Source: a virus (taxonomy: Duplodnaviria; Heunggongvirae; Uroviricota; Caudoviricetes). Taken from it: a stretch of 23,911 nucleotides of DNA. The stretch is taken from IMG/VR virus record IMGVR_UViG_2526164594_000022. One strand, given 5' to 3'. The notes under the pieces were generated by a model, which made no database searches, was not told the DNA's origin, and was given only the letters and a program-made list of their open reading frames with translations. The first letter of the stretch is position 1. Every line of letters starts with the position of its first letter. Position numbers and translations under genes: made by a program. Positions 9,203 to 23,011 of this stretch are shown here, one piece after another.

Positions 9203-9687
9203 TTGTTCTTGCCCCCTTATTTCCAGACAGGGGGGGTATCTTAAGTTAACGTTACCCGCTGACGTCGATATTCTCGCGGAGAGCGATAACCCAACGCACT
9301 GTGCGGATGGTTTTCATTGTAATGTTCGATCGCCACTGCAAGATTATGCAATGCCGTTCTTACATTCGGTTTCGGCATGAACGCGATGTAGTCTTCCTTC
9401 ATCGTTTTCACGAACCTTTCTGCAATTCCATTACTCTGAGGACTGCTGATTGCCGTTGTGCAGGGCTCCAGATTCAACTCTCTGGCGAACTGCCGTGTTT
9501 CATGCGCTCTATACGCTGAACCGTTATCTGTCAGCCACTGGATGGACTGTTCCGGTACTTTATCGCCAAAGCGTTTTTCTATCGCTCCTAACATGACATC
9601 CTGCACTGTCGCTTTATCGTAACCTCCCGTGCTTGCGGCCCAGTCTATGGCTTCACGATCGCAACAGTCCAGGGCGATTCATCTGGG
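9203..9687 (-). mobile_element. IS2-family (IS3 superfamily) remnant: 3' end only, with terminal repeat
   Basis: Minus-strand translation ..[72 protein letters not shown]...[14 protein letters not shown] resembles IS2 InsD (OrfB) C-terminus. Homology stops at a stop codon near 9687. Reverse complement of ~9203-9235 resembles the IS2 right end (TGTCTGGAAATA..GGGGCAA). Confidence 0.65.
9241..9606 (-). pseudogene. Transposase OrfB C-terminal fragment (rve integrase core) of the IS2-family remnant
   Basis: 121-aa ORF with DDE-region motifs (..TDNGSAYRA.., ..[11 protein letters not shown].., [14 protein letters not shown]); N-terminal two-thirds missing. Confidence 0.7.
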
Positions 9688-9953
9688 CCAATCCTTGCTC
9701 ATAACAGGCATTCACTTCAGTCATGGCAGAAAGGTATGCATGCTGGAGAAGTCGTGAAAGAAAAGAAGACTGCTGCGCCGTTTGTCGTCACGTTTATCTT
9801 CATTGGCTATGCAAGTCGTAATACAAGGTGGGACAAAACTGAGACACATAAGGCCTCGCAATGGCTTGCAAGGCTTTACATGTTTTGATGTGGTGGGACG
9901 TGTGAGCGCAGTGTTGATGGGGTAATGCTTTGAATTAGAAGCGGATTCTTATA

Positions 9954-9999
9954 ATTCGTAATGCGAAGGTCGTAGGTTCGACTCCTATTATCGGCACCA
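9954..9999 (+). other. 3' fragment of tRNA-Thr (thrW-type, anticodon loop to CCA): attL-like direct repeat of the P4-like element
   Basis: ATTCGTAATGCGAAGGTCGTAGGTTCGACTCCTATTATCGGCACCA matches the 3' 46 nt of tRNA-Thr(CGU) as recalled. Upstream sequence lacks the 5' half (no GCCGATA acceptor strand). Confidence 0.75.
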
Positions 10000-10161
10000 T
10001 CTCAACTTCCTCAAACGTCCGTATTAGTCCATAAAATCTCTGATTTATAACATTTTTTATTCTTTTAAGTCCATAGTAGTCCGTAACCATCCAGTAGAAT
10101 CCGGTACTGAATGTGTATAGGATTGTGTATATGTTCCTGTTCGGTCTGGATTCCTATACAC

Positions 10162-11343
10162 ATGCCTTTAAACGATATGCAGATTCGCCGCGCTAAGCCT
10201 GAAGCTAAAGCCTATACATTTGGAGATGGGCTAGGGTTGTCATTACTTATAGAACCTAATGGAAGCAAGAGTTGGCGGTTCCGCTATCGCTATGCCGGCA
10301 AACCCAAAATGATCTCGCTTGGTGTTTACCCAACGATCACCCTTGCCGATGCTCGTTCCCGTCGTGATGAAGCTCGAAAACTTGTGGCAGAAGGAAAGAA
10401 CCCTAGTGAGGTTCGAAAAGAGCAAAAGCTAGCTATGCAAACAGAGTCAGAGAACGCCTTCGAAAAGATAGCCAGAGAGTGGCATCAACTTAAATCTGCT
10501 AAATGGTCGGCGGGATATGCATCAGACATCATGGAAGCGTTTAAGAACGACATTTTTCCTTATGTCGGAACAAGGCCTGTGGGAGAGATTAAACCGCTAG
10601 AGCTGCTGAACGTTCTGCGTAAAATTGAGAAACGTGGTGCGTTGGAGAAAATGCGCAAAGTGCGGCAGCGTTGCTCCGAAGTGTTTCGCTACGCAATTGC
10701 AACGGGTAGGGCGGAGTACAATCCTGCGGCTGATCTCTCCAGCGCTCTCGAAGTACACCAATCCAATCATTTCCCATTCCTAAAAGCTGATGAGATACCT
10801 GATTTTCTACGTGCCTTAGAGGGTTACTCCGGGAGTAAGCTTGTCCAGATAGCCACGAAATTACTGATGATTACGGGTGTGAGAACCATCGAATTACGCG
10901 CGGCATTATGGCAAGAATTTGATCTGGATAACGCTATTTGGGAAATTCCTGCTGAAAGGATGAAAATGCGTAGGCCACATCTTGTGCCCTTATCATCTCA
11001 AGCGGTAGATTTACTCAATGAACTCAAGATCATGACAGGGAACTATCGTTATGTTTTTCCAGGGCGGAACGATCCGAATAGGCCAATGAGCGAAGCGAGT
11101 ATAAATCAAGCCATTAAGCGTATTGGGTATGGAGGAAAAGTCACTGGACATGGTTTTCGTCATACCCTTTCTACAATCCTGCATGAGCAAGGTTTTGAGA
11201 GTGCTTGGATTGAAATCCAGTTGGCTCATGTAGATAAAAATTCTATTAGGGGGACTTATAACCATGCTCAATATTTTAGTGGAAGGAAGTCTATGATGGA
11301 CTGGTACAGTAATTTGATATTTGAAAGACTAAAAAGGAGTTAA
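10162..11343 (+). CDS. int: P4-type tyrosine integrase
   Basis: N-terminus MPLNDMQIRRAKPEAKAYTFGDGLGLSLLIEPNGSKSWRFRYR (P4-integrase-family arm-binding region); C-terminal catalytic residues in ..GHGFRHTLSTILHEQG..LAHVDKNSIRGTYNHAQY. ORF track starts at 10111 with an unlikely Cys-rich leader. Confidence 0.85.
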   Translation: MPLNDMQIRRAKPEAKAYTFGDGLGLSLLIEPNGSKSWRFRYRYAGKPKMISLGVYPTITLADARSRRDEARKLVAEGKNPSEVRKEQKLAMQTESENAFEKIAREWHQLKSAKWSAGYASDIMEAFKNDIFPYVGTRPVGEIKPLELLNVLRKIEKRGALEKMRKVRQRCSEVFRYAIATGRAEYNPAADLSSALEVHQSNHFPFLKADEIPDFLRALEGYSGSKLVQIATKLLMITGVRTIELRAALWQEFDLDNAIWEIPAERMKMRRPHLVPLSSQAVDLLNELKIMTGNYRYVFPGRNDPNRPMSEASINQAIKRIGYGGKVTGHGFRHTLSTILHEQGFESAWIEIQLAHVDKNSIRGTYNHAQYFSGRKSMMDWYSNLIFERLKRS

Positions 11344-11346
11344 TTT

Positions 11347-11763
11347 GTGTCTCAACCACTTTCGGAAATATTGACATGGGATGATGAACAATGGGAGGTA
11401 TTTGTCCATGATTGGCTTATTGTCTGTAAATCAGATGATTACCCGTGGAGCGAACGTTTGGGAGGAGCTGGAGATAAAGGTAGAGACGTTGTTGGATATA
11501 AATCGGATCCTAACGTAGAAGGTTATTCTTGGGATAATTATCAATGCAAACTGTACAAAAAAAGTTTAGGGTTCTCTGATGTTGTAGTTGAGTTTGGAAA
11601 ACTTATCTATTTTACTCTGAATGGTGATTATCCCATCCCTCAGAAGTACTTTTTTGTGGCACCCTATGATTTATCTACTACATTTTCTAATTTATTGAAA
11701 AATAAAAACGAGCTTAAAAAAGCAGTCCTTGATTCATGGGATTCAGCAATTTCAAAAAAATAA
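11347..11763 (+). CDS. Cargo protein, N-terminal part: Mrr-like PD-(D/E)xK restriction-endonuclease-fold domain (LmuA-like effector candidate); ORF ends in an A7 run
   Basis: GTG start preceded by SD AAGGAG. Motifs WEVFVHDWL ... GGAGDKGRDVVGY ... YQCKLY fit the E...D...(Q/E)xK catalytic arrangement of Mrr-type nucleases. Stop immediately follows an A7 homopolymer at 11754-11760. Confidence 0.55.
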   Translation: MSQPLSEILTWDDEQWEVFVHDWLIVCKSDDYPWSERLGGAGDKGRDVVGYKSDPNVEGYSWDNYQCKLYKKSLGFSDVVVEFGKLIYFTLNGDYPIPQKYFFVAPYDLSTTFSNLLKNKNELKKAVLDSWDSAISKK

Positions 11764-12353
11764 CTAAAAAGATTGATATTCCATTAGATGATGAAATAAA
11801 AAAATATATTGAGGATTTTGATTTTAGTATTTTTTACTCTCTACCCTTATCATTGATTTTAAATGATATTGCAAATACACACCTTTATTTTAAGTACTTT
11901 AACGAGCTGTATGTCGTGAGAATCCCTCCAAATGAAATTCCAACATACAATTCAAAAAAAGAGTCTGTATATGTTAATGCACTGCTTCAAGCCTATTCAG
12001 AGCATGGAAATAAAACTTATAGTTCTTTCTTAGAGCTTGATGATCCATACAGACGACACTTTAATAATAGTAGAAATGATTTTTATTTTGCATCTTCGCT
12101 TGAGGTTTTTGTCCGCGAAGTATTTAAAGATGATGTATTCAAAGCATTGAAATGTTACATTTCATCTTCAATTGAACCCGTCTTTTATGAAGACCATAAT
12201 TATGCATTTATTAGGTGTAATGCAGTCTTGAAGCAGGCTGTTCTGACACCAATTGCACATTCAGTACTATCAAAAATATGTGAAGCAAATGATAAAAAAG
12301 GAATATGCCATCATTTGGTTAATGATGGTGAAGTAATTTGGACGGTGAGATAA
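11736..12353 (+). CDS. Cargo protein, probable continuation of the preceding ORF in the +1 frame (C-terminal domain of the nuclease protein)
   Basis: Open frame passes through the same A7 run; one extra A would join ..DSWDSAISKK to ITKKIDIPLDDEIKKY.., giving a ~335-aa protein. Stop overlaps the next ATG (TAATG). Confidence 0.5.
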   Translation: MGFSNFKKITKKIDIPLDDEIKKYIEDFDFSIFYSLPLSLILNDIANTHLYFKYFNELYVVRIPPNEIPTYNSKKESVYVNALLQAYSEHGNKTYSSFLELDDPYRRHFNNSRNDFYFASSLEVFVREVFKDDVFKALKCYISSSIEPVFYEDHNYAFIRCNAVLKQAVLTPIAHSVLSKICEANDKKGICHHLVNDGEVIWTVR

Positions 12354-12811
12354 TGGTTAGAATTTATAATTCAAGTTTAGAAGTGGCATGTCGAATGGCG
12401 AAAGTGCTCGTCGCTATTTATCCTTCTTCATTAAGCCTTGAACGGCTTATTTGTTTTGATTTTATTTTAGTAAATCTTAAGGATTTTTTACCTGAAGAGA
12501 TTAGTCTTCATCCTCCAATACCCCGTAGAGATGCTCAGTTAGCCCTAAAACGAGAGATTGTTTTAGAATCATTGGCTTTGTTGCAAGGCTATGAACTAGC
12601 CTCAAAAATTTATACACATCGTGGTTTTGTATATAAAGCTTCTGAAAAAACATATGCATTTACAAATTCTCTACATAATGAATATGTTGCGCAGATGGAG
12701 CATAATATAAATTTGGTGGTTAAGTTATATAGTGATATTCCTGATGAGCAGTTGCAATCAATTATAAAAAATAAAATTGGCAAATATGATATGGAATTTA
12801 ATTATGAATGA
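12353..12811 (+). CDS. Small cargo protein (~152 aa), candidate middle component (LmuC-like by position)
   Basis: ATG at 12353 overlaps the upstream stop (TAATG), suggesting translational coupling; 3' end overlaps the next ATG (ATGAATGA). No motif recognised. Confidence 0.5.
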   Translation: MVRIYNSSLEVACRMAKVLVAIYPSSLSLERLICFDFILVNLKDFLPEEISLHPPIPRRDAQLALKREIVLESLALLQGYELASKIYTHRGFVYKASEKTYAFTNSLHNEYVAQMEHNINLVVKLYSDIPDEQLQSIIKNKIGKYDMEFNYE

Positions 12812-13436
12812 CAATTTTTTTACGTTCAGAAAAATAAAGGTAACCGGATTCAATAAATTAGATGCTATAATTGAATTTGGTTCTAAATTGACTATTTTAT
12901 ATGGTGGTTCTGACTCTGGAAAAACATACATATATTATTTGATTCGATATTTATTAGGGAGTGAAAAACTAAAAAATAAAGATATCGATCATGCTCAAGG
13001 TTATGATTTAGCCTATCTGGAATTTAATTTTCAAGGTAGGGTAATGACAATTGAGAGGTCTCTTCAGGATAGCGCCCATTACAGATTATATGATTCGAGC
13101 ATTGAAAATGTTAGTGAAGCTAATCTGTTGATGGTTTTTTCCAAAAGTGCTTCGTCTAAAAAGAGTTTTTCATCATACTTTTATGGTAGGTTGAATTTCA
13201 AAGAGGCTAAAGTAAGAACAAACTTAAGTAATACTCTTCATAAATTTAATCTTAATAATGTTTTTGAATTTTTTTGTATTGATGAATTAAGAGTGTTAAC
13301 TGAGAAGTCGTTAATTCTTTCTGATATTCCTAGCGAGGAGACAAAAAGAAAGTCTGAATTTAAATTCCTTTTAACTCAGAGAGATGATACTAACTCCTTA
13401 GCAGAAAAACCAAATAAAAAAGCAAGATATTTTTAA
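12804..13436 (+). CDS. SMC/Rad50/RecF-like ABC ATPase, N-terminal head half (Walker A); LmuB-like candidate, fragment 1
   Basis: MNDNFFTFRKIKVTGFNKLDAIIEFGSKLTILYGGSDSGKTYIYYLIRYLLG: the typical SMC_N-type start (..i.i.nF...) and P-loop GGSDSGKT. Ends at an in-frame TAA that begins an A7 run. Confidence 0.6.
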   Translation: MNDNFFTFRKIKVTGFNKLDAIIEFGSKLTILYGGSDSGKTYIYYLIRYLLGSEKLKNKDIDHAQGYDLAYLEFNFQGRVMTIERSLQDSAHYRLYDSSIENVSEANLLMVFSKSASSKKSFSSYFYGRLNFKEAKVRTNLSNTLHKFNLNNVFEFFCIDELRVLTEKSLILSDIPSEETKRKSEFKFLLTQRDDTNSLAEKPNKKARYF

Positions 13437-13466
13437 AAAAATCAAATTGCAAATATTTATGAGGAA

Positions 13467-13856
13467 TTGAAAGCGCAATTAATTTATCCTGAATATGATC
13501 AAGTCATTGTTTCAAGAGAACTTGAGAAAGTAGAGCAAGATATTGAATCATCGAAAGATATATTGAAAGGTATTGTTGATGCACTTGATGATAAGAAGCA
13601 ATTATTAAAAGAGTTAAGTGATGAATTATATTCAATCAGTGACAGGGAAAAATACTTATCATTACTCATTGAAAGATTTAGTCTTCTTAAAGACCAATAC
13701 TTTATAGATCTACAAAGAATAGATGTTGTATCACAGGCGAATTTCTATTTAAATAATTTTGCAGATATTTATTGTGAGTTCTGTAATACACCGCAAAAAA
13801 AGAAAATGAAATATCATATGATGATTGTTTTTTGTCGTGTAATGCAGAAAAATTGA
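13467..13856 (+). CDS. Coiled-coil segment of the SMC-like ATPase (fragment 2), ending in CxxC
   Basis: Same frame as the preceding ORF, separated by a single TAA. Heptad-rich sequence ..ELEKVEQDIESSKDILKGIVDALDDKKQLLKELSDELYSI.. ending ..CEFCNTPQKK at an A7 run (13795-13801). Confidence 0.45.
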   Translation: MKAQLIYPEYDQVIVSRELEKVEQDIESSKDILKGIVDALDDKKQLLKELSDELYSISDREKYLSLLIERFSLLKDQYFIDLQRIDVVSQANFYLNNFADIYCEFCNTPQKKKMKYHMMIVFCRVMQKN

Positions 13857-14056
13857 AAATCAAAAGCCAGCTGAAAGGATTAATTGAATCAATCGGATCT
13901 AATGTTCGCGAACATGAATTAATTATGTTAAGAAAAAATGATGTTAATGAAATTTATCAATCAGAAAAAAGTGATTTTAAGACGTTAGAAGATAAAAATA
14001 TAAAACAATACATTCATCTCTTGAATCACTTTATGAATATAAAGACAATCTTTTAA
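13832..14056 (+). CDS. SMC-like ATPase fragment 3 (second half of a putative zinc hook, CFLSC, plus coiled coil)
   Basis: With one extra A in the A7 run the reading becomes CEFCNTPQKKENEISYDDCFLSCNAEKLKIKSQLK.., i.e. CxxC-x16-CxxxC, reminiscent of Rad50/SMC hook motifs. Confidence 0.4.
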   Translation: MSCNAEKLKIKSQLKGLIESIGSNVREHELIMLRKNDVNEIYQSEKSDFKTLEDKNIKQYIHLLNHFMNIKTIF

Positions 14057-14622
14057 TGGATCACACAAAACATAGCATTCTATCTTCATTACAAGATAAA
14101 GAAGATGATGTTGACGAACTTAAATACTCCGCCGAGGACTTTGACTCCTTAACAGTAGCTGATTTGTATGATATAGAAATAGCGATGCAAGACTTTTTGA
14201 ATGATATAAATTTTGAAAATTCTAAAGATAACAAAGTGCGATTTGACGAAGATACATATGACTTTAATATCAATGGGAAACGCCGAGGAATGTTTGGTAA
14301 AGGTACCCGTGCAGTAATGCATGCTATATTTACCATTTGCTTTGCGGAATTTTTATCAAGAAAAGGGAATCCATTCATTGGATTTGTTGTGCTTGATAGT
14401 CCATTAGTGACGCACTTTGATAAAGATAGAGGGGGTTCTCTATCGGATGTTAATAGCGTCAGTCTCAGTGATTCATTTTATCACGCATTAATCAAAAGGG
14501 ACTATAATTTCCAGATTGTAATTCTTGAGAATAAAGGTCCGACGTTCCAAATAAAAATTAATGATGCAAATAAAATCCATAACTTAAATAAGAATGGAAG
14601 CTCTGGTTTTTATCCTGTTTAA
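14056..14622 (+). CDS. SMC-like ABC ATPase, C-terminal head half (signature-like and Walker B-like motifs), fragment 4
   Basis: ..GKRRGMFGKGTRAVMHAIFTICFAEFLSRKGNPFIGFVVLDSPLVTHFDKD..QIVILENKG: signature-like GKGTRA, hydrophobic stretch plus acidic residue (VVLDSP) in Walker B position. ATG overlaps the upstream stop (TAATG). Confidence 0.55.
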   Translation: MDHTKHSILSSLQDKEDDVDELKYSAEDFDSLTVADLYDIEIAMQDFLNDINFENSKDNKVRFDEDTYDFNINGKRRGMFGKGTRAVMHAIFTICFAEFLSRKGNPFIGFVVLDSPLVTHFDKDRGGSLSDVNSVSLSDSFYHALIKRDYNFQIVILENKGPTFQIKINDANKIHNLNKNGSSGFYPV

Positions 14623-14984
14623 TACATTAAAAATATAACTGCTAATTGGGGTGCTCGAAATTATATTTCGTTTCGAGCGCTCAGTTCATTTCTAAATAAT
14701 TTGCAAAATTATTTTGGGTACTTTCGCCTCTACACTTCCTTCGGGTGGTTCCACAATAATGGATCTCACCGGCGTTTGATATTTTATAATCTAACCCCTT
14801 AGCGCGCGCAGCCCCCCACGCCTGCTCGCTTCGCTTAACAGACTGGTTTTCATGCATTCCGCAAATCGTCTCAGAAGCCACCACACAAGGGCTTTCGCGT
14901 CAAAAATGGTGCATGAGAATCATGCGTTTTCATGCGCTATAGACATGCACTCATGCGCTCTCAGGCCAGCCAGGGAAAAGGCGT

Positions 14985-15027
14985 AAAAAATCCCAGTACT
15001 GGACCGGGATTACGTGGGCTTTTTTTG
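14985..15027 (-). terminator. Putative intrinsic terminator downstream of the delta/ogr-like gene
   Basis: Minus-strand hairpin AATCCC-N11-GGGATT followed by TTTTTT. Stem is short, so tentative. Confidence 0.35.
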
Positions 15028-15031
15028 CTAA

Positions 15032-15304
15032 TCAGACAGGAATTTGCTGACGGCTTGACAGCTTTGACGCGGAGCCATAGCGATTGAGAGTTTGCTGTTG
15101 TTTTTCCGGCATTTGTGCTTTCTCTGATTCCTGTTCATTGCGCCGGGGCTTCATGATTATCGTATCCACACTTTCCAGTGCGGTAAATGTGTAGGAACAT
15201 TCAAGATTCTGGCACTGATACCATGAGCGTTTAACCGATGGTGCTTCATAGGCGGAGGTTCTGGCGTGTGCCGTCGTACCGCATTCGGGACATTTAAGTG
15301 CCAT
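15032..15304 (-). CDS. Ogr/Delta-family zinc-finger late-gene activator
   Basis: MALKCPECGTTAHARTSAYEAPSVKRSWYQCQNLECSYTFTALESV..: C-x2-C...C-x4-C pattern and AHARTS motif as in P2 Ogr / P4 Delta. Confidence 0.85.
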   Translation of the reverse strand: MALKCPECGTTAHARTSAYEAPSVKRSWYQCQNLECSYTFTALESVDTIIMKPRRNEQESEKAQMPEKQQQTLNRYGSASKLSSRQQIPV

Positions 15305-15309
15305 TAATA

Positions 15310-15861
15310 TTACTCCTGCATGCCGTTAATGTAATCCAGACGTTGCTGAAAGCGCAGTTGTTGTGCAGGGGTGTAAGAGCTCTGGCAATCACGAACCATC
15401 ATGGGGTCAGGCATCACACCGGATTCATCCAGAATCATACGATAATCCCCGGCAATTTCAGGCGGTGTTATTGCCAGCTGGCGAACCAGAGCATTGCGTA
15501 ATATACGGGACGCAACGTCAACCCCTCCGCGCCCCTTCAGGAACGGAGCCAGTGCAGATGTCAGGGCTGCTCCATTCGCCTGCATAAAATTGCTGAGAGC
15601 GTCTTCTGTGCAGGCCTCCATCAGTTGATGCTGCGAGTAAATGCATTCGCGCGCAGCACAGTTAATTTGCCATTTCAGCACATCCAGATGTTCCCGCTGT
15701 AATTCGAGCTGTCGAGCATAATCTGCTGGTTTTTCCATGGCAGTGAGGAGTGATTCTATCTGTTGTTCAACGGCTTTTCGGCTCTCACTATGTCCAGCCC
15801 ACAGAATACGGGCATTTCTAAAACTGATAAGCGCTTGGTCTGGAGTGACTCGGGCCATCAT
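15310..15861 (-). CDS. psu: Psu-like protein (polarity suppression / capsid decoration)
   Basis: 183-aa ORF between the sid-like and delta-like genes; partial resemblance to P4 Psu (..LKWQINCAARECI.., ..GAALTSALAPFL.., ..YTPAQQ..) by recall. Confidence 0.65.
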   Translation of the reverse strand: MMARVTPDQALISFRNARILWAGHSESRKAVEQQIESLLTAMEKPADYARQLELQREHLDVLKWQINCAARECIYSQHQLMEACTEDALSNFMQANGAALTSALAPFLKGRGGVDVASRILRNALVRQLAITPPEIAGDYRMILDESGVMPDPMMVRDCQSSYTPAQQLRFQQRLDYINGMQE

Positions 15862-15930
15862 ACTGCTTTCTCCTTCTCAGCACGTTCCTGACGAACCTTC
15901 ATTTTATGCATAGCTGCTGGAGAGAGTTTA

Positions 15931-16611
15931 TTACTGAAATCCAGACGGGCCGCATAATCCGGGGGCAACTCCCGCCAGTTTAAACACGGGGTCCTGTTCG
16001 GGCATCGCATCGTTAGTCAGAGCCGGTCTGGTGATATGTTTATGAATAAAATCTTTCAGCAGTGTGTCCGGGTCATTAACTGAATGCACCACACCGACAA
16101 CTGCGCTGGCTTCCCTGCCCATTGTTGATTTGAGCAGGCTTAGTGTCTGGATTAGTGCTTTTCCATGCGACTGCATAAAATCTTCCCAGATTTGTTTTGC
16201 GCGAATACCCACAAGGGTGTCGTGCGCGTGGATATACTTTCCGGCTAATTCCGCAGCCTCCTGCGGCAAAAGTGCATTTTCGCTTTCCTGAGCCGCCAGC
16301 AGCTCATCAAAATCCTCAAGCGTTTCTCGTCCCAGCGCAATTTCCGTGCGCAGTTTTTTCATTTCCTTTGAGACTACGCCCTGACTTTCACGAAATAGCG
16401 TGCGCCACTCCTCATTCAGGGCGTTCGTCGTGGCTTCCATTTCAGCGCGGCGCTGGCGGATTGTCGCAATATTATCCGCTGCCGCTTTTTGCTGACGACG
16501 TGCTTCAAGCCATGCAGATTTGGTGGCATTCACTTTCTCAAGCGCCTGTTGCGTCGAAACAGGGATAGAAATTTCAACGATCGGGTTATTGTTCTGTTCT
16601 GGGATTGTCAT
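15931..16611 (-). CDS. sid: Sid-like external scaffold (capsid size determination) protein
   Basis: 226-aa ORF first in the minus-strand late cluster; shares ..EEWRTLFRESQGVVSKEMKK.. with P4 Sid (..DDWRTAFRAAGGVLSDELKQ..) by recall. Confidence 0.6.
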   Translation of the reverse strand: MTIPEQNNNPIVEISIPVSTQQALEKVNATKSAWLEARRQQKAAADNIATIRQRRAEMEATTNALNEEWRTLFRESQGVVSKEMKKLRTEIALGRETLEDFDELLAAQESENALLPQEAAELAGKYIHAHDTLVGIRAKQIWEDFMQSHGKALIQTLSLLKSTMGREASAVVGVVHSVNDPDTLLKDFIHKHITRPALTNDAMPEQDPVFKLAGVAPGLCGPSGFQ

Positions 16612-17544
16612 GTCAGCACCTAGTGGTTTGTCGTGGTGTCAATTGTGCTGTGATGCATACAAAGCTGCCATTGAACGCCATTGTGCGAGCGACAAGACAA
16701 AGACTGAACCGCCCCGGACCTCTTTTGGCTAGCCAGAAAAGGCCTCGTTTAACTAAGGCTGTTTCAGACTTACCTTAACTATTCACTACTATTCACTTAG
16801 GTAAAAAAAATAGGTAATACAGAAGGTTATAAGGTGAAGGGTTGGCATGGCAGTATTCATCGACTGTTCATAACTGTTCACATGGGAATAAAATTATTTA
16901 TGGTATTTTTTCATAATGGGTGGTTTTTTTATTCCTCGTAGCTATTTGTTTTTTGCTCCTCACCACTATTCATCCTTATTCAGGAGTATTCAACAGGCAC
17001 ATAAATAGACTGCATGTTTTTGCCGGGGAATAACATTTTCGCCTCTGGCCATGGTGTTGCATTTCATACTGATTTTTATAAAACTAGATCTGTCCGGTTC
17101 TTTATGGATTCATTCGGATATATTTTACGATTTAAGGTGATGTTATTTAATATCAAGGTTTTTATGCAGGCCCAATGTTTATAAGTTGGATGCGATTCAA
17201 AAATATGCCCGGAAATTGGGGCCTGCAATGCAAGGCCTCGTGTAGAAGTTGTACTGCCTTGCTGTATTGGCGGTGGGGTTAGCACTATCAGGTGCAATGA
17301 CCCATAGGATAGTAAACCCTGGGTGAATGGTAGTTCCTATTAATGCTCCTGTATTTATAGTCCGCAGGCATGGTATTTATTATGTCATTTTATATGGTTT
17401 AATCGGGCTTTAAATTCCATAAAATCAATATGTGACGCTAAATAAAAAATGCGTGCGCAGGTGGTTTATATACACATAATAAGGAACTACCTGAACCCGG
17501 ATAAATTCATCCGGACTGTTGTGGAAATTAAAGAGGGTAGATAA

Positions 17545-17805
17545 ATGCGTAATATTTCTGTGTCTGCGCCAGCTCCTGCTGCGCCATTATTTCCTGTATC
17601 GAACCATCATGAGCGATTTTTACGCCTGCCTGAGGTGATGCACTTATGCGGGTTGTCCCGTTCGACCGTTTACGACCTGATCAGCCGCGATGCGTTTCCG
17701 AAGCAGATCCCGCTTGGCGGTAAAAATGTCGCCTGGGCACAGTCTGAGGTCAGCGCATGGATGGCGGACCGCATCAGCGCCCGTGGGCGGGGATGTGATG
17801 CATGA
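17545..17805 (+). CDS. AlpA/Vis-family small HTH regulator / excisionase-like protein
   Basis: ..[50 protein letters not shown].. fits the AlpA-family consensus (LP.V..G.S..T.Y......FP.PI.LG.R.V.W...EV..W). True start may be internal. Confidence 0.7.
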
Positions 17806-17933
17806 TGATACCTGCATACATTAAATACCTTTATTCTGGCTTGCTTACTGTCGTCATTTCCAGGTATAGTTTTTCCGCTGTCGCAAAATCGGCAGCCGGA
17901 ATTGGCGTTCCGTATAACTTATTGGCGACAATT

Positions 17934-17955
17934 GACGCCCCTTGCGTCTTTTTTT
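17934..17955 (+). terminator. Intrinsic terminator (GACGC-CCCTT-GCGTC followed by T7) within the early leader region
   Basis: 5-bp GC-rich stem, 5-nt loop, run of 7 T. Position is analogous to the immunity terminator region of P4-type elements. Confidence 0.55.
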
Positions 17956-18162
17956 ACGTCGTAGCTCAGGCACAACCATTTTCAGGGCTGTGGTGTTTAT
18001 GCTTACACCATGGTTCTATCGAGATAATGGTAGTCCGGGCGGGGCAGCCTTCGGGCTGGCCGGTTTCCAATAAGGCCGGTTACGCCAACCCCGTTCGGGC
18101 TGCCACCAGTGAAATTGGCGTTTCCGGTGGTAGCAATAACCGCTACTTATTGGAGGCTGCCA

Positions 18163-18359
18163 TCATGGCTACAATCCTCACCCCGTCACACCCGCAATAT
18201 GTCTTTGTGTTTGCCGCAATCCGCCGTGCTGACACTCACCCCCGCATCTGTATGCTTCGCACTGTCTCCTGCGATGAGCGTTCCGCGCGCCGTTTGCTAG
18301 TCCGAGATTATGTACTCTCCCTTTCTGCACGGCTGCCTGCCGGGGAGGTGACGCTATGA
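18163..18359 (+). CDS. Small hypothetical early protein (65 aa)
   Basis: ATG preceded by SD GGAGG (ATTGGAGGCTGCCATCATG); stop overlaps the next start (ATGA). The longer ORF-track entry 17802-18359 spans the terminator and structured region and is not credible upstream of this start. Confidence 0.45.
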
Positions 18360-18577
18360 ACCAGTTTGAGATTTCCTACGACGATGTTGTAAGGCTGAAA
18401 CATTTACGCAATGTGGGTGAGTATGTAACTGGCATGGCAGCCCTGCAGGACTGTTATGAAAAGCCAGCAGGTGCCCAATGCGAACAACTGGTTTCCCTCA
18501 TTTATCTGATGACAGAGCAACTGGATGGAGTGGTGCAACGCTGCCATGACGACCTGATGAATGCGGAGGTGGCCTGA
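18356..18577 (+). CDS. Small hypothetical early protein (73 aa)
   Basis: Translationally coupled to neighbours on both sides (ATGA and TGATGATATG overlaps); typical placement of P4-like early regulators. Confidence 0.5.
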
Positions 18578-18900
18578 TGATATGCTGTGAATCTCTTCTG
18601 GCACTTCGTGCCGCTCTGTATCGCCGTGCCGTTGCCTGTGCCTGGCTGGCTCTAAGCAATCATCAGGAACGTTATTCCGGCCTGACGCTCGCTGAACTTG
18701 AAGATGCCATAGCCCGCGAGCTGGAAGGGTTCTATCTGCGCCAGCATGGGCAGCAAAGAGGGCTGGAAATTGCCTGCGCGTTGCTTTCGGATCTGATGGA
18801 GTCGGGGCCGCTTAAAGCCTGTCCGGTTCTCTCACTGCTCGGAATGACGGTCATGGATGAACTTTGTTCCCGTCACCTCAACAAACCAGCGCTGCACTAA
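18577..18900 (+). CDS. Small hypothetical early protein (107 aa)
   Basis: ORF immediately upstream of the primase, in operon arrangement; no motif recognised. Confidence 0.5.
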
Positions 18901-18913
18901 GGAGGGCCGCACA

Positions 18914-21247
18914 ATGTCAGGAATGAAAGTTAGCCAGGCTGAGAAAGCAGCTCGGGGTCACTGGTCAAGAATTTTACCTGCGCTGGGCGTAAATGTACTG
19001 AAAAATCGGCACCAGCCCTGCCCGGTCTGTGCCGGGAAAGACCGCTTTCGATTTGATGACCAGGAAGGGCGGGGAACGTGGTTCTGTAACCAGTGCGGGG
19101 CAGGTGATGGCCTGGCGCTTGTAAGTAAAGTACTGGATGTAGGCATTAGTGAAGCGGCAGACAGAATAAACGGCATTATCGGAAACCTGCTGCCAGTATC
19201 TCAGGGAATGCTTGAATCTGGTTCTCCTGAAAAAGAGGACGGGAGAAAAGCTGCAGCAGTGCTGGCTGCCCGTTTGTTTGATAAGTCCCGCCAGACCACT
19301 GGCAATGCCTATCTGACGAGTAAAGGGTTTCCTGCACTGCCTTGCCGGGAATTAACCGCTATGCATAAAGTCGGTGGTGTGGCATTTCGCGCGGGAGATC
19401 TTGTCGTTCCATTGTATGCAGATGGAGAGCTGGTAAATCTGCAGTTAATCAACGCTAATGGGGGCAAATGCTTCCTTAAAGGCGGTCAGGTTAAGAATGC
19501 CTTTTACCTGGTTGAAGGTACTGCCAAAGCAGCCAAACGGCTCTGGATAGCGGAAGGATATGCCACCGCACTTACTATCAACTATCTGACTGGCGATGCT
19601 GTCATGGTGGCCTTTTCGTCCGTCAATTTCCTTTCCCTGGCGAGCATTGCCTGCAGTGAGTACCCAACGCACCAGATAATTATTGCTGCTGACCGCGATC
19701 TCAACGGTGCGGGGCAAACAAGGGGCGCAGCTGTTACCGGGGCCTGCAATTGCACAATGGCGCTCCCGCCTGTGTTTGGTGACTGGAACGATGCATTCAC
19801 GCAAAACGGCGAAGAAGCCACCCGGCATGCAATTCATGAAGTAATAAAACCAGCTGTTGCCAGCCCCTTCGACACAATGAGCGAAGCTGAATTTACCGCG
19901 CTGAGCGTCAGCGAAAAAGCGCAGAGGGTAGTGGATCACTATAAAAATTCACTGGCAGTAGACCCGAACGGGCAGCTCCTTTCACGCTATGAGGCGGGGG
20001 CCTGGAAAGTTATCTATTACGCCGATTTTGCCCGTGATGTCGCTGCGCTGTTTCAGCGCCTCGACGCACCTTTTTCATCCGCGAAAATTGCGTCTCTCGT
20101 GGAAACCCTCAAACTGATCGTTCCGCAACAGCAGAATCCGGCGCGGCAACTTATCGGATTTCGCAACGGTGTGCTCGATACCCGGACAGGATTGTTCAGC
20201 CCGCACGATAAGAAGCACTGGTTACGTACGCTGTGCGAGGTGGATTACACGCAGCCCGTTGACGGTGAGTCACTGGAAACCCATGCCCCGGCATTCTGGC
20301 GCTGGCTGGATCGTGCCGCAGGTTTTAATCCTGAAAAACGGGACATTATTCTGGCTGCATTGTTTATGGTGCTGGCTAACCGTTATGACTGGCAGCTGTT
20401 TCTGGAGGTCACTGGCCCTGGCGGAAGTGGAAAGAGTATTCTTGCTGAAATAGCAACCATGCTGGCGGGTGAAGATAACGCGACCTCGGCAACCATTGAA
20501 ATGCTTGAGTCGCCAAGAGAACGAGCTGCGTTAATAGGTTTTTCACTGATTCGACTTCCCGACCAGGAAAAGTGGAGCGGTGACGGGGCCGGACTAAAAG
20601 CCATCACTGGCGGCGATGCGGTATCCGTTGATCCCAAATATCAGAACGCCTATTCAACCCACATCCCGGCGGTCATCCTGGCTGTGAACAATAATCCGAT
20701 GCGCTTCACTGATCGTAGTGGTGGAGTTTCACGCCGAAGGGTGATCCTGCATTTCCCCGACCAGATAGCCCCGGAGGAACGCGATACCCAGCTCAAAGAG
20801 AAAATTGCCAGTGAGCTAGCGGTGATTGTTCGCCAGCTTATGCAGCGTTTCAGCGACCCAATGAGTGCCAGGACATTGCTTCAGTCACAGCAGAACTCCG
20901 ATGAAGCGCTCACCATCAAACGTGATGCTGATTCAGCTTTTGATTTTTGCGGCTACCTTGAGGTCCTACCTGACACCACGGGCATGTTTATGGGGAACGC
21001 TAATATTGTTCCACGTCAGCCTCGAACTTACCTCTACCATGCCTATCTGGTCTACATGGAGGCTAACGGCTATAAAAATACGCTCAGTCTGACCATGTTT
21101 GGCAAGGGGCTACCGTTAATGCTCAAGGAATATGGGCTGCAGTATGAGAAACGACGGACCAATCAAGGAATGCAGACTAATCTGGCCCTAAGAGAGGAAA
21201 GCAATGCTGACTGGTTGCCAAAATGCGATGAGTTTGCAGCGAAATAA
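18914..21247 (+). CDS. P4 alpha-type primase-helicase (zinc-binding primase, TOPRIM, D5-type NTPase)
   Basis: Strong SD AAGGAGGG before the ATG (MSGMKVSQ..). Zn motif CPVCAGKDRFRFDD..GTWFCNQCG, Walker A GPGGSGKS, 777 codons like P4 alpha. ORF track starts upstream at 18857. Confidence 0.9.
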   Translation: MSGMKVSQAEKAARGHWSRILPALGVNVLKNRHQPCPVCAGKDRFRFDDQEGRGTWFCNQCGAGDGLALVSKVLDVGISEAADRINGIIGNLLPVSQGMLESGSPEKEDGRKAAAVLAARLFDKSRQTTGNAYLTSKGFPALPCRELTAMHKVGGVAFRAGDLVVPLYADGELVNLQLINANGGKCFLKGGQVKNAFYLVEGTAKAAKRLWIAEGYATALTINYLTGDAVMVAFSSVNFLSLASIACSEYPTHQIIIAADRDLNGAGQTRGAAVTGACNCTMALPPVFGDWNDAFTQNGEEATRHAIHEVIKPAVASPFDTMSEAEFTALSVSEKAQRVVDHYKNSLAVDPNGQLLSRYEAGAWKVIYYADFARDVAALFQRLDAPFSSAKIASLVETLKLIVPQQQNPARQLIGFRNGVLDTRTGLFSPHDKKHWLRTLCEVDYTQPVDGESLETHAPAFWRWLDRAAGFNPEKRDIILAALFMVLANRYDWQLFLEVTGPGGSGKSILAEIATMLAGEDNATSATIEMLESPRERAALIGFSLIRLPDQEKWSGDGAGLKAITGGDAVSVDPKYQNAYSTHIPAVILAVNNNPMRFTDRSGGVSRRRVILHFPDQIAPEERDTQLKEKIASELAVIVRQLMQRFSDPMSARTLLQSQQNSDEALTIKRDADSAFDFCGYLEVLPDTTGMFMGNANIVPRQPRTYLYHAYLVYMEANGYKNTLSLTMFGKGLPLMLKEYGLQYEKRRTNQGMQTNLALREESNADWLPKCDEFAAK

Positions 21248-21254
21248 CTGACCT

Positions 21255-21275
21255 AAGACCGGCTGTGCCGGTCTT
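21255..21275. terminator. Stem-loop (AAGACCGG-CTGTG-CCGGTCTT) between convergent genes; possible terminator
   Basis: 8-bp perfect stem directly after the primase stop and downstream of the convergent 318-aa gene. No clear U-tract, so the function is uncertain. Confidence 0.4.
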
Positions 21276-21379
21276 AAATCCGCTACAGGAAATTATCTCA
21301 AAATATATATCGATAAAATTTAAAAGTTATATGCTAAGGCGTCAGCGGAAAATGCATCTAATTCATTGTTAGATGATGT

Positions 21380-22336
21380 TTATTTTTGAATTGATTTAAA
21401 CATCCCATCGAGTTGTAATTTATTTATGTCGGTTTTCTTTATGGCTTTAATTAAGTTTTCAATAACTTCCAAAGAAAAAATTACATCTTTCTTTTCAATT
21501 CTAACCCCCCCGTGGTGGCTGCAAGCATTAAGGATGTCCTTTGTAATTTCAACATCATTTTTCATTAATGGTTCATAGTCCAGAGCCTCAATAACAGAAA
21601 CTAAACTACCTAGCATTTGCTCTTGGTATTGAACGTTGTTTAAATGCATTATACGAATATTAACAAGCATGAGAATATATTCTAAATATCTCCTGGCAGT
21701 ATTTCCTTTCTCTTGTAAAGAATCACGATCATATTCCTCAATACTCATGACTTCATTATGTAAAGAGGCTATTTTGTGCTCTGCTAATGAAATATTTATC
21801 GCATCCATGAGGTTTCGTGAGAAGCCTGTAGATGTAACATGACCATTTGCGGGCCTTGTTAAAATACATGTAGTATAGCAATTTATATTTGGGGTCTGGA
21901 TTGTCTCATTTACTCTTTTAACCGTTCTATAAACGTCTACCATATAAGAACCTGAGTTTTCAAATGAACATGAAGAGCATTTTGTATTATATATTCTATT
22001 TAGAGATAACTGATTGTGATAGTATCCCTTTAAGAAAGCATATATAGTGTCATTAAACTCGACAAACACAACGGACTCAATATATATATGGAATTTATCA
22101 TTGGGGTGCCACTCTAATTCAAGTCTTCTTGTAGAGTCATCAAAGGAAAAGTTTGAAATAAAATCCCAGTTACCTAAATCTATAAAATCAACGATATTTC
22201 TACCTGCACCATGGATATTTTTATTTATTAAAGTTGTGATTGAGTTTTTTATAATGTCCCAATCATGAATTTCATGATCGAATTTATTATTGATGGTTTC
22301 TTTTATTTGATTGGAAAAGTTTGAATAACTAGTCAC
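21380..22336 (-). CDS. Hypothetical 318-aa protein, AT-rich; second cargo gene of the P4-like element between primase and attR
   Basis: Long uninterrupted ORF in an AT-rich stretch convergent with the primase; no recognisable motif. Confidence 0.6.
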   Translation of the reverse strand: MTSYSNFSNQIKETINNKFDHEIHDWDIIKNSITTLINKNIHGAGRNIVDFIDLGNWDFISNFSFDDSTRRLELEWHPNDKFHIYIESVVFVEFNDTIYAFLKGYYHNQLSLNRIYNTKCSSCSFENSGSYMVDVYRTVKRVNETIQTPNINCYTTCILTRPANGHVTSTGFSRNLMDAINISLAEHKIASLHNEVMSIEEYDRDSLQEKGNTARRYLEYILMLVNIRIMHLNNVQYQEQMLGSLVSVIEALDYEPLMKNDVEITKDILNACSHHGGVRIEKKDVIFSLEVIENLIKAIKKTDINKLQLDGMFKSIQK

Positions 22337-22866: not shown

Positions 22867-22885
22867 GGTTCCTATTATCGCACCA
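22867..22885 (+). repeat. attR-like direct repeat of the tRNA-Thr 3' end
   Basis: GGTTCCTATTATCGCACCA versus the left copy GGTTCGACTCCTATTATCGGCACCA: shared core CCTATTATCG(G)CACCA in the same orientation. Confidence 0.6.
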
Positions 22886-23011
22886 TTTAAATCAAGTAGT
22901 TACCCCATATTTAAATACACCACGTTTCCTCCTGTGCCGCATTTGTGCCATTGTAACCCTGGCAATTAATCAAAATACTGTTCTGACATCAGGCAATGCA
23001 GGTGCAGACAT

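What the first reader, a model, noticed from the sequence alone, without database searches (positions are those of the whole stretch)
9954..9999. P4-like satellite bounded by tRNA-Thr 3' repeats, but the tRNA next to int is incomplete
Seen in sequence: 46 nt matching the 3' end of tRNA-Thr lie directly upstream of the integrase, and a shorter imperfect copy (CCTATTATCGCACCA core) lies at 22867-22885 in the same orientation, delimiting a ~12.9-kb element. The sequence upstream of the left copy does not provide the tRNA 5' half; instead there is an IS2-family remnant and an AraC regulator. Inference: either the target tRNA was destroyed by later rearrangement, or elements are stacked in tandem at this site.
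Basis: partly seen in the sequence, partly recalled or inferred. Interest (0 to 1): 0.45.

Follow-up and report, generated by a model that had tools for sequence, protein, structure and literature searches.

The report
Tandem prophages at tRNA gene thrW
The half tRNA next to the satellite's integrase is the ordinary seam between two mobile elements, a decayed SfIV-like prophage (Sp1) and a P4-like satellite (Sp2), inserted one after the other into the tRNA-Thr gene thrW of E. coli O157:H7; the intact thrW lies 1.9 kb beyond the window's left edge, and the reference genome already annotates this layout.

Summary
Window 9954-9999 is an exact copy of the last 46 nt of thrW (tRNA-Thr, anticodon CGT). 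Window 22870-22885 repeats the last 17 nt with one G missing. The window contains no tRNA.

The window is E. coli O157:H7. In complete genomes the intact thrW sits 11.9 kb upstream of 9954, outside the window. The order is thrW, Sp1, 46-nt repeat, Sp2, 16-nt repeat, yagP.

The 46 nt are the attR core of Sp1. The attP of phage SfIV can be rebuilt exactly from the two Sp1 junctions, and the Sp1 integrase remnant is 99% identical to SfIV Int. The last 17 of the 46 nt also serve as the attL core of Sp2.

Sp2 is a genuine P4-like satellite. Its alpha protein is 73% identical to P4 alpha, and it has Int, Sid, Psu, an Ogr/Delta protein, AlpA and the CI RNA. Its cargo is a decayed Lamassu defence system.

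The Sakai reference record annotates both prophages at these boundaries, and published PCR found no excised circles. This is already known and of low interest.

The parts
1..815 (-). 3' part of IS629/IS1203 (IS3 family), inserted in the integrase gene of Sp1. It includes the ALIL frameshift pseudoknot at 361-477.
   Evidence: Annotation of L001. Rfam ALIL hit at 121 bits. Collinearity with Sakai, which lacks this IS copy, starts at 816.
784..3984 (.). Lambdoid early region of Sp1: hypothetical gene (784-1167, -), cI-like LexA-family repressor (1295-2008, -), cro (2109-2309), cII (2428-2721), frameshifted O gene with lambda-type ori iterons (3102-3216), and P fragments.
   Evidence: Annotations. 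Iteron family D2.
4312..6190 (.). Pin-invertible tail-fibre segment of Sp1, bounded by 20-nt inverted repeats at 4316-4335 and 6166-6185. It is inverted relative to strain Sakai. The pinE invertase gene follows at 6247-6801.
   Evidence: Inverted repeat I7. BLAST against Sakai shows 4312-6190 on the minus strand at 99.8% identity. Annotation.
6859..7632 (-). GIY-YIG (LEM-3-like) gene of Sp1 that matches the PD-T4-3 anti-phage defence family.
   Evidence: PADLOC PD-T4-3, E=2e-140. Pfam LEM-3_GIY-YIG.
8456..9199 (+). AraC-family regulator, moron cargo of Sp1. It is probably PatE (z0321 of O-island 8).
   Evidence: Pfam HTH_AraC and HTH_18. The PatE identity is inferred from locus-tag order only (PMC10877973; PMC4048457). 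The same cassette occurs in phages ev099, mEp332 and PhiR70_1.
9204..9673 (-). Partial IS3-family element, annotated 'ISEc48 partial' in Sakai. It is a transposase C-terminal remnant.
   Evidence: Pfam rve_3 and rve. Sakai repeat_region annotation. Annotated as InsD in phage PhiR70_1.
9829..9953 (+). P arm of the Sp1 attachment site, the left flank of attR.
   Evidence: Window 9829-9999 is 98.2% identical to the SfIV attP region. Alignment.
9954..9999 (+). 46-nt copy of the thrW 3' end. It is the attR core of Sp1. Its last 17 nt (9983-9999) double as the attL core of Sp2.
   Evidence: The Sakai annotation puts the Sp1/Sp2 boundary at window 9982/9983.
10000..10161 (+). P' arm of Sp2 with arm-type repeats TGTGTATAGG at 10112-10121, 10124-10133 and 10153-10162 (-).
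   Evidence: Four matches in the window, all within about 165 nt of the two att cores, against 0.85 expected by chance.
10162..11343 (+). Sp2 integrase (intS, 393 aa). It is a P4-type tyrosine recombinase and appears intact.
   Evidence: Pfam Arm-DNA-bind_3, Phage_int_M and Phage_integrase. 38% identical to P4 Int over 404 aa, E=1e-99.
11347..14622 (+). Cargo in the int-psu hotspot: a pseudogenised Lamassu (ABC-three-component) defence system. LmuA is split in two (11347-11763 and 11736-12353). LmuC is at 12353-12811. LmuB is in at least three fragments (12804-13436, 13467-13856, 14056-14622).
   Evidence: PADLOC hits cover successive parts of single LmuA (336 positions) and LmuB (610 positions) profiles. 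Pfam CTD6, MC2 and AAA_23. Sakai annotates the ATPase as a pseudogene.
14804..14822 (-). cos-like sequence GGCGTGGGGGGCTGCGCGC in the expected position between the cargo and the late genes. It is diverged and shortened relative to the P2/P4/186 cohesive ends.
   Evidence: The P2/P4 19-mer is absent at 3 or fewer mismatches. Comparison with the cos regions of related satellites L004, L006 and L007. Location. Function is inferred, not shown.
15032..16611 (-). Sp2 late operon, transcribed sid, then psu, then ogr/delta: Ogr/Delta-like gene (15032-15304), psu (15310-15861), sid (15931-16611). In this strain an extra G at 15961 frameshifts the sid C-terminus.
   Evidence: Pfam Ogr_Delta and Psu. PHROG 6165 for Sid, E=6e-87. 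Frameshift seen against L001 and Sakai.
16612..17544 (.). Intergenic control region between sid and alpA, with clustered TATTCA/TGTTCA motifs that resemble P4 type-1 ori repeats. It is the probable origin and promoter region.
   Evidence: Sequence inspection, compared with the P4 crr sequence. Inferred only.
17545..18900 (+). Sp2 immunity and early region: AlpA/Vis-like HTH (17545-17805), isrK sRNA (17877-17954), C4/CI antisense RNA (18023-18110) inside the Ash-family ORF (17802-18359), a 73-aa ORF, and DUF5375, the P4 orf106 homologue (18577-18900).
   Evidence: Rfam hits above gathering score. Pfam Phage_AlpA, Phage_ASH and DUF5375. About 70% DNA identity to P4 over this region.
18914..21247 (+). 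Sp2 alpha primase-helicase (777 aa).
   Evidence: 73% identical to P4 alpha over the full length. Pfam Zn_Ribbon_Prim, Toprim_3, D5_N and Pox_D5.
21380..22336 (-). 318-aa ORF of unknown function between alpha and attR. It could be second-hotspot cargo.
   Evidence: No Pfam, PADLOC or PHROG match. Annotated as hypothetical.
22870..22885 (+). attR core of Sp2, TCCTATTATCGCACCA, which is the thrW 3' end minus one G. An arm-type repeat lies at 22790-22799 in the P arm.
   Evidence: The Sakai annotation ends Sp2 at window 22869.
22886..23911 (.). Native chromosome downstream of thrW, including the LysR-family gene yagP (23012-23911, -).
   Evidence: Identical to the sequence directly following thrW in empty-site genomes (L003). 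948 genomes have this junction.

Best explanation
The window is the thrW integration hotspot of E. coli O157:H7, and it holds two mobile elements head to tail. The layout is: intact thrW (outside the window, 1.9 kb left of position 1), then Sp1, then a 46-nt thrW 3' repeat (9954-9999), then Sp2 (10000-22869), then a 16-nt thrW 3' repeat (22870-22885), then yagP.

Sp1 is the remnant of an SfIV/SfV-type temperate phage. The attP of that phage type shares a 46-bp core with thrW. Integration regenerates a complete thrW at attL and leaves the 46-nt partial copy at attR. That partial copy is the finding.

Sp2 is a P4-like satellite. Its integrase uses only the last 16-17 nt of thrW as core, and this core lies inside the 46 nt. 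One repeat therefore serves as attR of Sp1 and as attL of Sp2.

Shown here: the layout, the identity of both att cores and their arms, and the family of each element.

Inferred: the order of events, at about 0.7. Sp2 was probably resident first, next to intact thrW as in O55:H7. The SfIV-like phage then integrated into the regenerated thrW and pushed Sp2 downstream.

Also inferred: Sp2 is now immobile in practice. Its Lamassu cargo is pseudogenised, its cos is diverged, its sid is frameshifted in this strain, and the host has no competent P2-type helper.
For: Location of the tRNA:
- There is no tRNA in the window.
- An intact tRNA-Thr(CGT) lies at L001 10018-10093, which is 1.9 kb left of the window start.
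- The Sakai RefSeq record annotates thrW, then 'prophage Sp1, lambda-like' (300042-310627), then 'prophage Sp2, P4-like' (310628-323514). The boundaries map to window 9982/9983 and 22869.

Sp1 is SfIV-type:
- The SfIV attP equals the Sp1 attR left flank, plus the 46-nt core, plus the sequence that follows intact thrW in O157. Window 9829-9999 is 98.2% identical to SfIV.
- The Sp1 integrase remnant is 305/306 identical to SfIV Int residues 82-387.
- The literature reports a 46-bp attP for SfI, SfIV and SfV, with integration at thrW (PMC3851460).
- It also reports SfI integrating at the attL of resident SfX to give a tandem array at thrW (PMC3306764).

Both elements and the empty site occur separately in 5426 E. 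coli genomes:
- 948 genomes have the empty junction.
- 120 genomes have thrW directly beside an Sp2-like int.
- 316 genomes have the Sp1-type right end, the 46 nt and the native flank with no Sp2. One of them, L005, is a prophage with intact head and tail modules.
- 207 genomes have the tandem arrangement.

Order of events:
- O55:H7 DEC5A carries an Sp2 that is 99.7% identical over 13.1 kb, directly beside intact thrW and with no Sp1.

Sp2 is P4-like:
- Arm-type repeats flank both cores.
Against: - The final structure is the same whichever element arrived first, so the order rests on the distribution among strains. O55:H7 and some O157 strains could instead have lost Sp1.
- No activity of either att site has been shown in O157. 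Published tests found no circularisation, replication or packaging of Sp1 or Sp2, with or without mitomycin C (PMC2669165).
- The Sp2 attR core is one base short of the tRNA sequence.
- No canonical P2/P4 cos 19-mer is present.
Confidence: 0.95

Rival explanations
1. This rival keeps the tandem layout but reverses the order. Sp1 integrated first, and Sp2 later integrated into the partial thrW copy at the attR of Sp1, using it as a secondary attB.
For: - The end structure is identical under both orders.
- The 17-nt Sp2 core lies wholly within the 46-nt repeat.
- Incoming phages can use a resident prophage's attR. Sp10 integrated at the attR of Rac in K-12 (PMC2669165).
- Sp1-type prophages without Sp2 are common, in 316 genomes.
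Against: - O55:H7 DEC5A and O157:H- 493/89, which I recall as basal relatives of O157:H7, have the orthologous Sp2 beside intact thrW without Sp1. The DEC5A copy is 99.7% identical to Sp2 here.
- The best Sp1-only junctions (99.5% identity or lower) are not in O157:H7 strains.
- In the one experimental tandem at thrW, the newcomer went to attL (PMC3306764).
Confidence: 0.25
2. The thrW copy next to int was once complete. Its 5' half was destroyed by a later rearrangement, for example an IS-mediated deletion.
For: An IS3-family remnant lies 280 nt upstream of the partial tRNA.
Against: - The break is exactly at the edge of the SfIV 46-bp attP core, and the 125 nt to its left are 98% identical to the SfIV P arm.
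- The same junction (P arm plus 46 nt) occurs in 316 genomes without Sp2.
- An intact thrW is present upstream.
- The AraC gene and IS remnant form a cassette carried beside the attP-int region in the free phage ev099 and also present in mEp332 and PhiR70_1.
Confidence: 0.01
3. The short right-hand repeat is a chance match and is not the true end of the element.
For: It is only 16 nt long and imperfect. Matches of this quality occur by chance in about 6% of shuffled windows.
Against: - Empty-site genomes join thrW directly to the base after 22885.
- The same core, preceded by a similar P arm and a P4-like alpha gene, recurs in VR50 and in at least six other Enterobacterales species.
- An arm-type repeat sits 70 nt to its left.
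- The Sakai annotation ends Sp2 here.
Confidence: 0.01

Closest known systems
Prophage Sp2 of E. coli O157:H7 Sakai (CP-933I in EDL933, a name I give from memory)
   Same: It is the same element at the same locus. The window is collinear with Sakai at 99.98% identity across Sp2. Sp2 is described as the P4-like prophage of Sakai, with intact repressor, integration, excision and replication functions predicted (PMC2669165).
   Different: This strain has three small differences from Sakai within Sp2: an extra G that frameshifts sid, one deleted A in the LmuB pseudogene, and one SNP.
Satellite phage P4 (NC_001609)
   Same: - Gene set and order match P4: int, hotspot cargo, cos region, late operon, immunity RNA region, orf106 homologue, alpha, att.
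- Alpha is 73% identical over all 777 aa.
- The early region is about 70% identical at the DNA level.
- C4/CI RNA is present.
- AlpA/Vis, Psu and Sid are present.
- Arm-type repeats lie on both sides of a short core at a tRNA 3' end.
   Different: - The target is thrW, whereas P4 uses leuX (from memory). Int is only 38% identical.
- The late gene order is sid, psu, delta instead of sid, delta, psu.
- The activator is a 90-aa single-domain Ogr-like protein, not the 166-aa Delta.
- No epsilon homologue was recognised in Sp2. The literature places one in Sp13 instead.
- gop, beta and cII are replaced by a dead Lamassu system.
- The cos sequence is diverged.
Shigella serotype-converting phages SfIV, SfV and SfI, and prophage Sp1 of Sakai (CP-933H)
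   Same: - The 46-bp attP core in thrW is the same.
- The P arm is 98% identical and the P' arm nearly identical.
- Int is 99% identical over the surviving 306 aa.
- Tandem occupation of thrW is documented for SfI plus SfX (PMC3306764).
   Different: - Sp1 is a remnant of about 10.6 kb, plus an IS629 copy in this strain.
- It has no gtr genes and no head or tail module, apart from the invertible tail-fibre segment.
- Its int is truncated and its O gene is frameshifted.
- In the attR-proximal moron position it carries an AraC regulator, an IS remnant and PD-T4-3.
P4-like satellites with defence hotspots between int and psu (Rousset et al. 2022, from memory)
   Same: Relatives at thrW carry different cargo in the same slot: a SIR2 protein (L004), an ATP-dependent nuclease plus a UvrD helicase (L006), and a reverse transcriptase (L007). 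Sp2 carries Lamassu.
   Different: The Sp2 cargo is pseudogenised in O157:H7. It is pseudogenised by different lesions in O55:H7, where LmuC has an internal stop and LmuB is less fragmented.

Membership tests
P4-like satellite phage | Alpha-type primase-helicase replication protein | tested here: met
   A 777-aa protein 73% identical to P4 alpha over the full length. Pfam primase zinc ribbon, Toprim, D5_N and Pox_D5.
P4-like satellite phage | P4-family tyrosine integrase next to a tRNA 3'-end att core, with arm-type repeats | tested here: met
   Int is 38% identical to P4 Int, E=1e-99, with all three domains. A 17-nt core and a 16-nt core lie at the two ends. TGTGTATAGG repeats flank both cores.
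P4-like satellite phage | Helper-exploitation late genes sid, psu and delta | tested here: met
   Psu, E=5e-42, and Ogr_Delta, E=1e-16. Sid PHROG 6165, E=6e-87. Caveats: the gene order differs from P4, the activator is single-domain, and sid is frameshifted at its C-terminus in this strain.
P4-like satellite phage | RNA-based immunity (CI / C4 antisense RNA) | tested here: met
   Rfam C4 antisense RNA at 84 bits (gathering score 45) at 18023-18110. isrK at 72 bits at 17877-17954.
P4-like satellite phage | P2-type cos site for packaging by a helper | tested here: inconclusive
   The P2/P4 19-mer is absent at 3 or fewer mismatches. A diverged, shorter cos-like sequence lies at 14804-14822 in the right place. 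It is similar to a second cos-like type in L007 but has deletions.
P4-like satellite phage | Epsilon antirepressor of the helper | not tested
   No Pfam name was recovered for the 73-aa ORF at 18356-18577; it matches only PHROG 10110, of unknown function. The literature says the epsilon homologue in Sakai sits in Sp13, not in Sp2 (PMC2669165).
P4-like satellite phage | Excision, replication and packaging dependent on a P2-like helper | not testable with these tools
   Published data report no circularisation, replication or packaging in Sakai with or without mitomycin C. The resident P2-like Sp13 lacks most morphogenetic genes (PMC2669165).
SfIV/SfV-type thrW-integrating temperate phage (Sp1) | 46-bp attP core identical to the thrW 3' end, with matching P and P' arms | tested here: met
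   Three-way alignment of the SfIV attP, the Sp1 attR and the Sp1 attL. 98.2% identity over 171 nt. The 46-bp attP is reported in PMC3851460.
SfIV/SfV-type thrW-integrating temperate phage (Sp1) | SfIV-type integrase | tested here: met
   305/306 identical over SfIV Int residues 82-387. The N-terminal 81 aa are missing, so the gene is inactive. It is annotated as a pseudogene.
SfIV/SfV-type thrW-integrating temperate phage (Sp1) | Complete morphogenesis and lysis modules (a functional phage) | tested here: not met
   Only early-region genes and a tail-fibre/Pin segment remain. A relative with intact head and tail modules and the same right end exists in strain PapM-32-1 (L005). Sp1 is therefore a remnant of this kind of phage, not a working member.
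Lamassu / ABC-three-component defence system (Sp2 cargo) | Intact LmuA, LmuB (SMC-like ATPase) and LmuC genes | tested here: not met
   LmuA is split into two overlapping ORFs, and LmuB into at least three ORFs that cover successive parts of one 610-position profile. Only LmuC is whole. Sakai annotates the ATPase as a pseudogene.

The most novel reading that the evidence does not exclude
The thrW-specific P4-like satellites may carry, as a family trait, an att core one base shorter than the tRNA (TATCGC instead of TATCGGC). If so, strand exchange must occur 3' of that position, within the last few nucleotides of thrW, for the tRNA to be rebuilt intact. When exchange happens further 5', thrW is left with a defective acceptor stem.

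Copies of this kind, full-length thrW ending in TATCGCACCA, do appear in Citrobacter murliniae, a Buttiauxella MAG and Klebsiella spallanzanii. In the C. murliniae genome the upstream flank places the copy at the native locus. This would mean that satellites at this site sometimes damage their target tRNA.

The evidence does not exclude this reading. It equally does not exclude assembly errors or unrelated elements. No P4-like int lies next to those three copies.
Probability: 0.2. Interest if true: 0.3.

Novelty: already known. Interest (0 to 1): 0.08.

Why it matters
It matters little beyond correct annotation. A partial tRNA next to an integrase should first be read as a junction inside a tandem array, and the intact tRNA may lie outside a short window. 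The case is a clean worked example of one repeat serving two integrases, with a 46-bp core for the SfIV-type Int and a nested 17-bp core for the P4-type Int. It also shows thrW as a busy hotspot: among 5426 E. coli genomes, 948 were scored as empty at thrW, 120 with a P4-like element directly beside thrW, 316 with an Sp1-type right end and no Sp2, and 207 with the Sp1-Sp2 tandem. For O157 biology it adds that the Sp2 Lamassu cargo is dead, while the Sp1 remnant still carries intact-looking PD-T4-3 and AraC (probably PatE) genes.

Tried and rejected
1. I hypothesised that the missing G in the Sp2 attR core is a decay mutation that explains the lack of excision. I rejected this. The same one-base-short core, preceded by a similar P arm and often by a P4-like alpha gene, occurs in E. 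coli VR50 (L006) and in more than 20 loci from other Enterobacterales. It is therefore a family trait. One relative (L004) has the perfect 17-mer.
2. I searched for the canonical P2/P4 cos 19-mer and found no match at 3 or fewer mismatches. BLAST of the expected region against the P4 cos junction gave nothing significant. Only comparison with related satellites revealed a diverged cos-like sequence.
3. I searched for the P4 type-1 ori repeat TGTTCACC and TTCACC clusters. Counts were no better than chance. Only looser TATTCA/TGTTCA clusters are visible by eye in the 16612-17544 region.
4. A literature search for 'CP-933I' returned no paper using that term. The PatE paper PMC3416394 is not held, so equating the AraC gene with PatE rests on locus-tag order only.
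5. The scan of genome contigs with the 16-mer gave mostly chance hits in unrelated phyla (95 of about 120 listed).

Full report
**Observation**

Window 9954-9999 reads ATTCGTAATGCGAAGGTCGTAGGTTCGACTCCTATTATCGGCACCA. ARAGORN finds no tRNA anywhere in the window.

The window is 100% identical to many E. coli O157:H7 chromosomes. I fetched one complete genome with 12-kb flanks as locus L001. In it, an intact 76-nt tRNA-Thr (anticodon CGT, thrW) lies downstream of proA at L001 10018-10093, about 1.9 kb left of window position 1.

The 46 nt at 9954-9999 match the last 46 nt of that gene exactly. Identity stops at 9953/9954.

The right-hand copy is also real. Window 22870-22885 is TCCTATTATCGCACCA, the last 17 nt of thrW with one G missing.

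**Boundaries tested against other genomes**

I built chimeric junction queries and searched 5426 complete E. coli genomes.
- 948 genomes join thrW directly to the sequence that follows 22885 here, which is the empty site (example L003). Everything between thrW and 22886 is therefore inserted DNA.
- 120 genomes have an intact thrW directly beside an Sp2-like integrase.
- 316 genomes have the left flank of 9954, the 46 nt and the native flank, with no satellite.
- 207 genomes carry the whole window arrangement.

Both elements, and the empty site, therefore occur independently.

**What the 46 nt are**

The 171 nt ending at 9999 are 98.2% identical to the attP region of Shigella phage SfIV.

A three-way alignment shows how the SfIV attP is rebuilt from the two ends of the upstream element. 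It equals the left flank of 9954, plus the 46-nt core, plus the sequence that follows intact thrW in O157.

The truncated integrase gene next to thrW is 305/306 identical to SfIV Int residues 82-387.

SfI, SfIV and SfV are reported to have a 46-bp attP and to integrate at thrW (PMC3851460).

The 46-nt partial tRNA is therefore the attR core of an SfIV-type prophage. Nothing destroyed a tRNA. The AraC gene (8456-9199) and the IS3-family remnant (about 9204-9673) are cargo at the attR-proximal end of that prophage. The same cassette lies beside the attP-int region in the free lambdoid phage ev099 and is also present in mEp332 and PhiR70_1. A relative with intact head and tail modules and the same right end exists in strain PapM-32-1 (L005).

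**The downstream element**

Window 10000-22869 is a P4-like satellite. The evidence is as follows.
- Alpha is 73% identical to P4 alpha over all 777 aa.
- Int is P4-type, 38% identical to P4 Int with all three domains.
- Psu, a 90-aa Ogr/Delta-like activator and Sid are present.
- An AlpA/Vis-like HTH, an Ash-family ORF and DUF5375 are present.
- Rfam finds the C4/CI antisense RNA and isrK above gathering score.
- DNA identity to P4 is about 70% across the early region.
- TGTGTATAGG arm-type repeats lie only next to the two att cores.

It differs from P4 in several ways.
- The target is thrW.
- The late gene order is sid, psu, delta.
- The canonical P2/P4 cos 19-mer is absent. A shortened cos-like sequence sits at 14804-14822.
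- The int-psu hotspot holds a Lamassu system that is pseudogenised. LmuA is in two pieces and LmuB in at least three.
- In this strain an extra G frameshifts the sid C-terminus.

**Already annotated**

The Sakai RefSeq record lists thrW at 299983-300058, 'prophage Sp1, lambda-like phage' at 300042-310627, and 'prophage Sp2, P4-like phage' at 310628-323514. The window is collinear with Sakai from 816 to its end. The annotated Sp1/Sp2 boundary therefore maps to window 9982/9983, and the Sp2 end maps to 22869.

PMC8190617 also states that Sp1 and Sp2 are located at thrW. Asadulghani et al. (PMC2669165) classify Sp2 as P4-like with predicted intact repressor, integration, excision and replication functions.

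**Mechanism and order of events**

Integration at a tRNA 3' end regenerates the tRNA at attL and leaves a partial copy at attR. The length of the partial copy equals the core of the element that made it.

Here the SfIV-type core is 46 bp and the P4-type core is its last 17 bp. One repeat therefore serves as attR of Sp1 and attL of Sp2.

The final structure is the same whichever element came first. Three observations favour Sp2 first.
- O55:H7 DEC5A carries the orthologous Sp2, 99.7% identical over 13.1 kb, directly beside intact thrW with no Sp1. The Sp2-only set also includes O157:H- 493/89.
- No O157:H7 genome showed the Sp1-only junction among the best hits.
- In the experimental tandem at thrW, incoming SfI integrated at the attL of resident SfX (PMC3306764).

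I rate Sp2 first at about 0.7. Loss of Sp1 from those strains cannot be excluded.

**The imperfect right repeat**

I first suspected that the missing G was a lesion explaining the lack of excision. That does not hold. The same one-base-short core closes a different P4-like element in E. coli VR50 (L006). It also recurs, with a similar P arm and often a P4-like alpha gene, in many Enterobacterales species. One relative (L004) has the perfect 17-mer.

The short core is a family trait. It implies, by inference, that strand exchange occurs 3' of the G/GG position. That would explain why attL keeps GG and a working tRNA while attR keeps the element's single G.

The failure to see circles in Sakai is better explained another way, again by inference. 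P4-type satellites respond to a P2-type helper rather than to SOS induction, and the resident P2-like Sp13 is defective.

**Verdict**

The tandem-stacking alternative is correct and the tRNA-destruction alternative is refuted. The arrangement is already known and annotated, so interest is low.

Noticed in passing
window 4312-6190 (inverted repeats 4316-4335 and 6166-6185; pinE 6247-6801): The tail-fibre segment of Sp1 is inverted relative to strain Sakai. It is bounded by 20-nt inverted repeats next to the Pin invertase gene. This looks like a Pin-type invertible segment caught in the other orientation, which implies the invertase of this remnant is, or recently was, active.
   Followed up: partly
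window 6859-7632 (-): The Sp1 remnant carries an intact-looking GIY-YIG gene that matches the PD-T4-3 anti-phage defence family (PADLOC E=2e-140).
   Followed up: partly
window 11347-14622; L002 16724-19999: The Lamassu (LmuA-LmuC-LmuB) cargo of Sp2 is pseudogenised. The lesions differ between O157:H7 and O55:H7 DEC5A. In DEC5A, LmuC has an internal stop and the LmuB N-terminal 394 aa are still fused. This indicates ongoing independent decay.
   Followed up: partly
window 15961 and 13795: Relative to Sakai and L001, this strain has an extra G in a G-run that frameshifts the last 34 codons of sid. It also has one deleted A in the LmuB pseudogene. These could be real or could be homopolymer sequencing errors.
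   Followed up: partly
window 8456-9199: The AraC-family regulator is probably PatE (z0321, O-island 8), a published activator of acid resistance and repressor of LEE genes. The identity is inferred only from locus-tag order relative to the CP-933H tail-fibre genes Z0314 and Z0316.
   Followed up: partly
window 3102-3216: Five lambda-type ori iterons (ATCCCTCAAAACGAGGGAAA and variants) lie inside the frameshifted O replication gene of Sp1.
   Followed up: no
window 1-815: An IS629/IS1203 copy interrupts the Sp1 integrase region in this strain but not in Sakai, so the window does not come from Sakai itself.
   Followed up: partly
window 21380-22336 (-): A 318-aa ORF between alpha and attR has no Pfam, PADLOC or PHROG match. 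It could be uncharacterised cargo in a second satellite hotspot.
   Followed up: partly
L018 3760-3833 (-), L024 2064-2137, L027 3076-3149: In Citrobacter murliniae, a Buttiauxella MAG and Klebsiella spallanzanii, a full-length thrW ends in the one-base-short TATCGCACCA (ARAGORN calls a 74-nt tRNA). In C. murliniae its upstream flank resembles the E. coli proA-thrW spacer, so it sits at the native locus. In two of the three (C. murliniae and Buttiauxella) it is followed by a P'-arm-like sequence. No P4-like integrase is nearby. thrW may have been damaged by integration, or these may be assembly errors.
   Followed up: partly
L015, L025, L041, L059, L073, L094, L104 (genome-contig hits): Several Enterobacterales loci show the short core flanked by a P-arm-like sequence on the left and a P'-arm-like sequence on the right. 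These are junctions between two satellites in tandem, so stacking at thrW appears common beyond E. coli.
   Followed up: no
L004 16301-32774 (E. coli G47-1): This is another tandem array at thrW. A P4-like satellite with SIR2 cargo is followed directly by a CP4-6-like island (ykfI, yafW and others).
   Followed up: no
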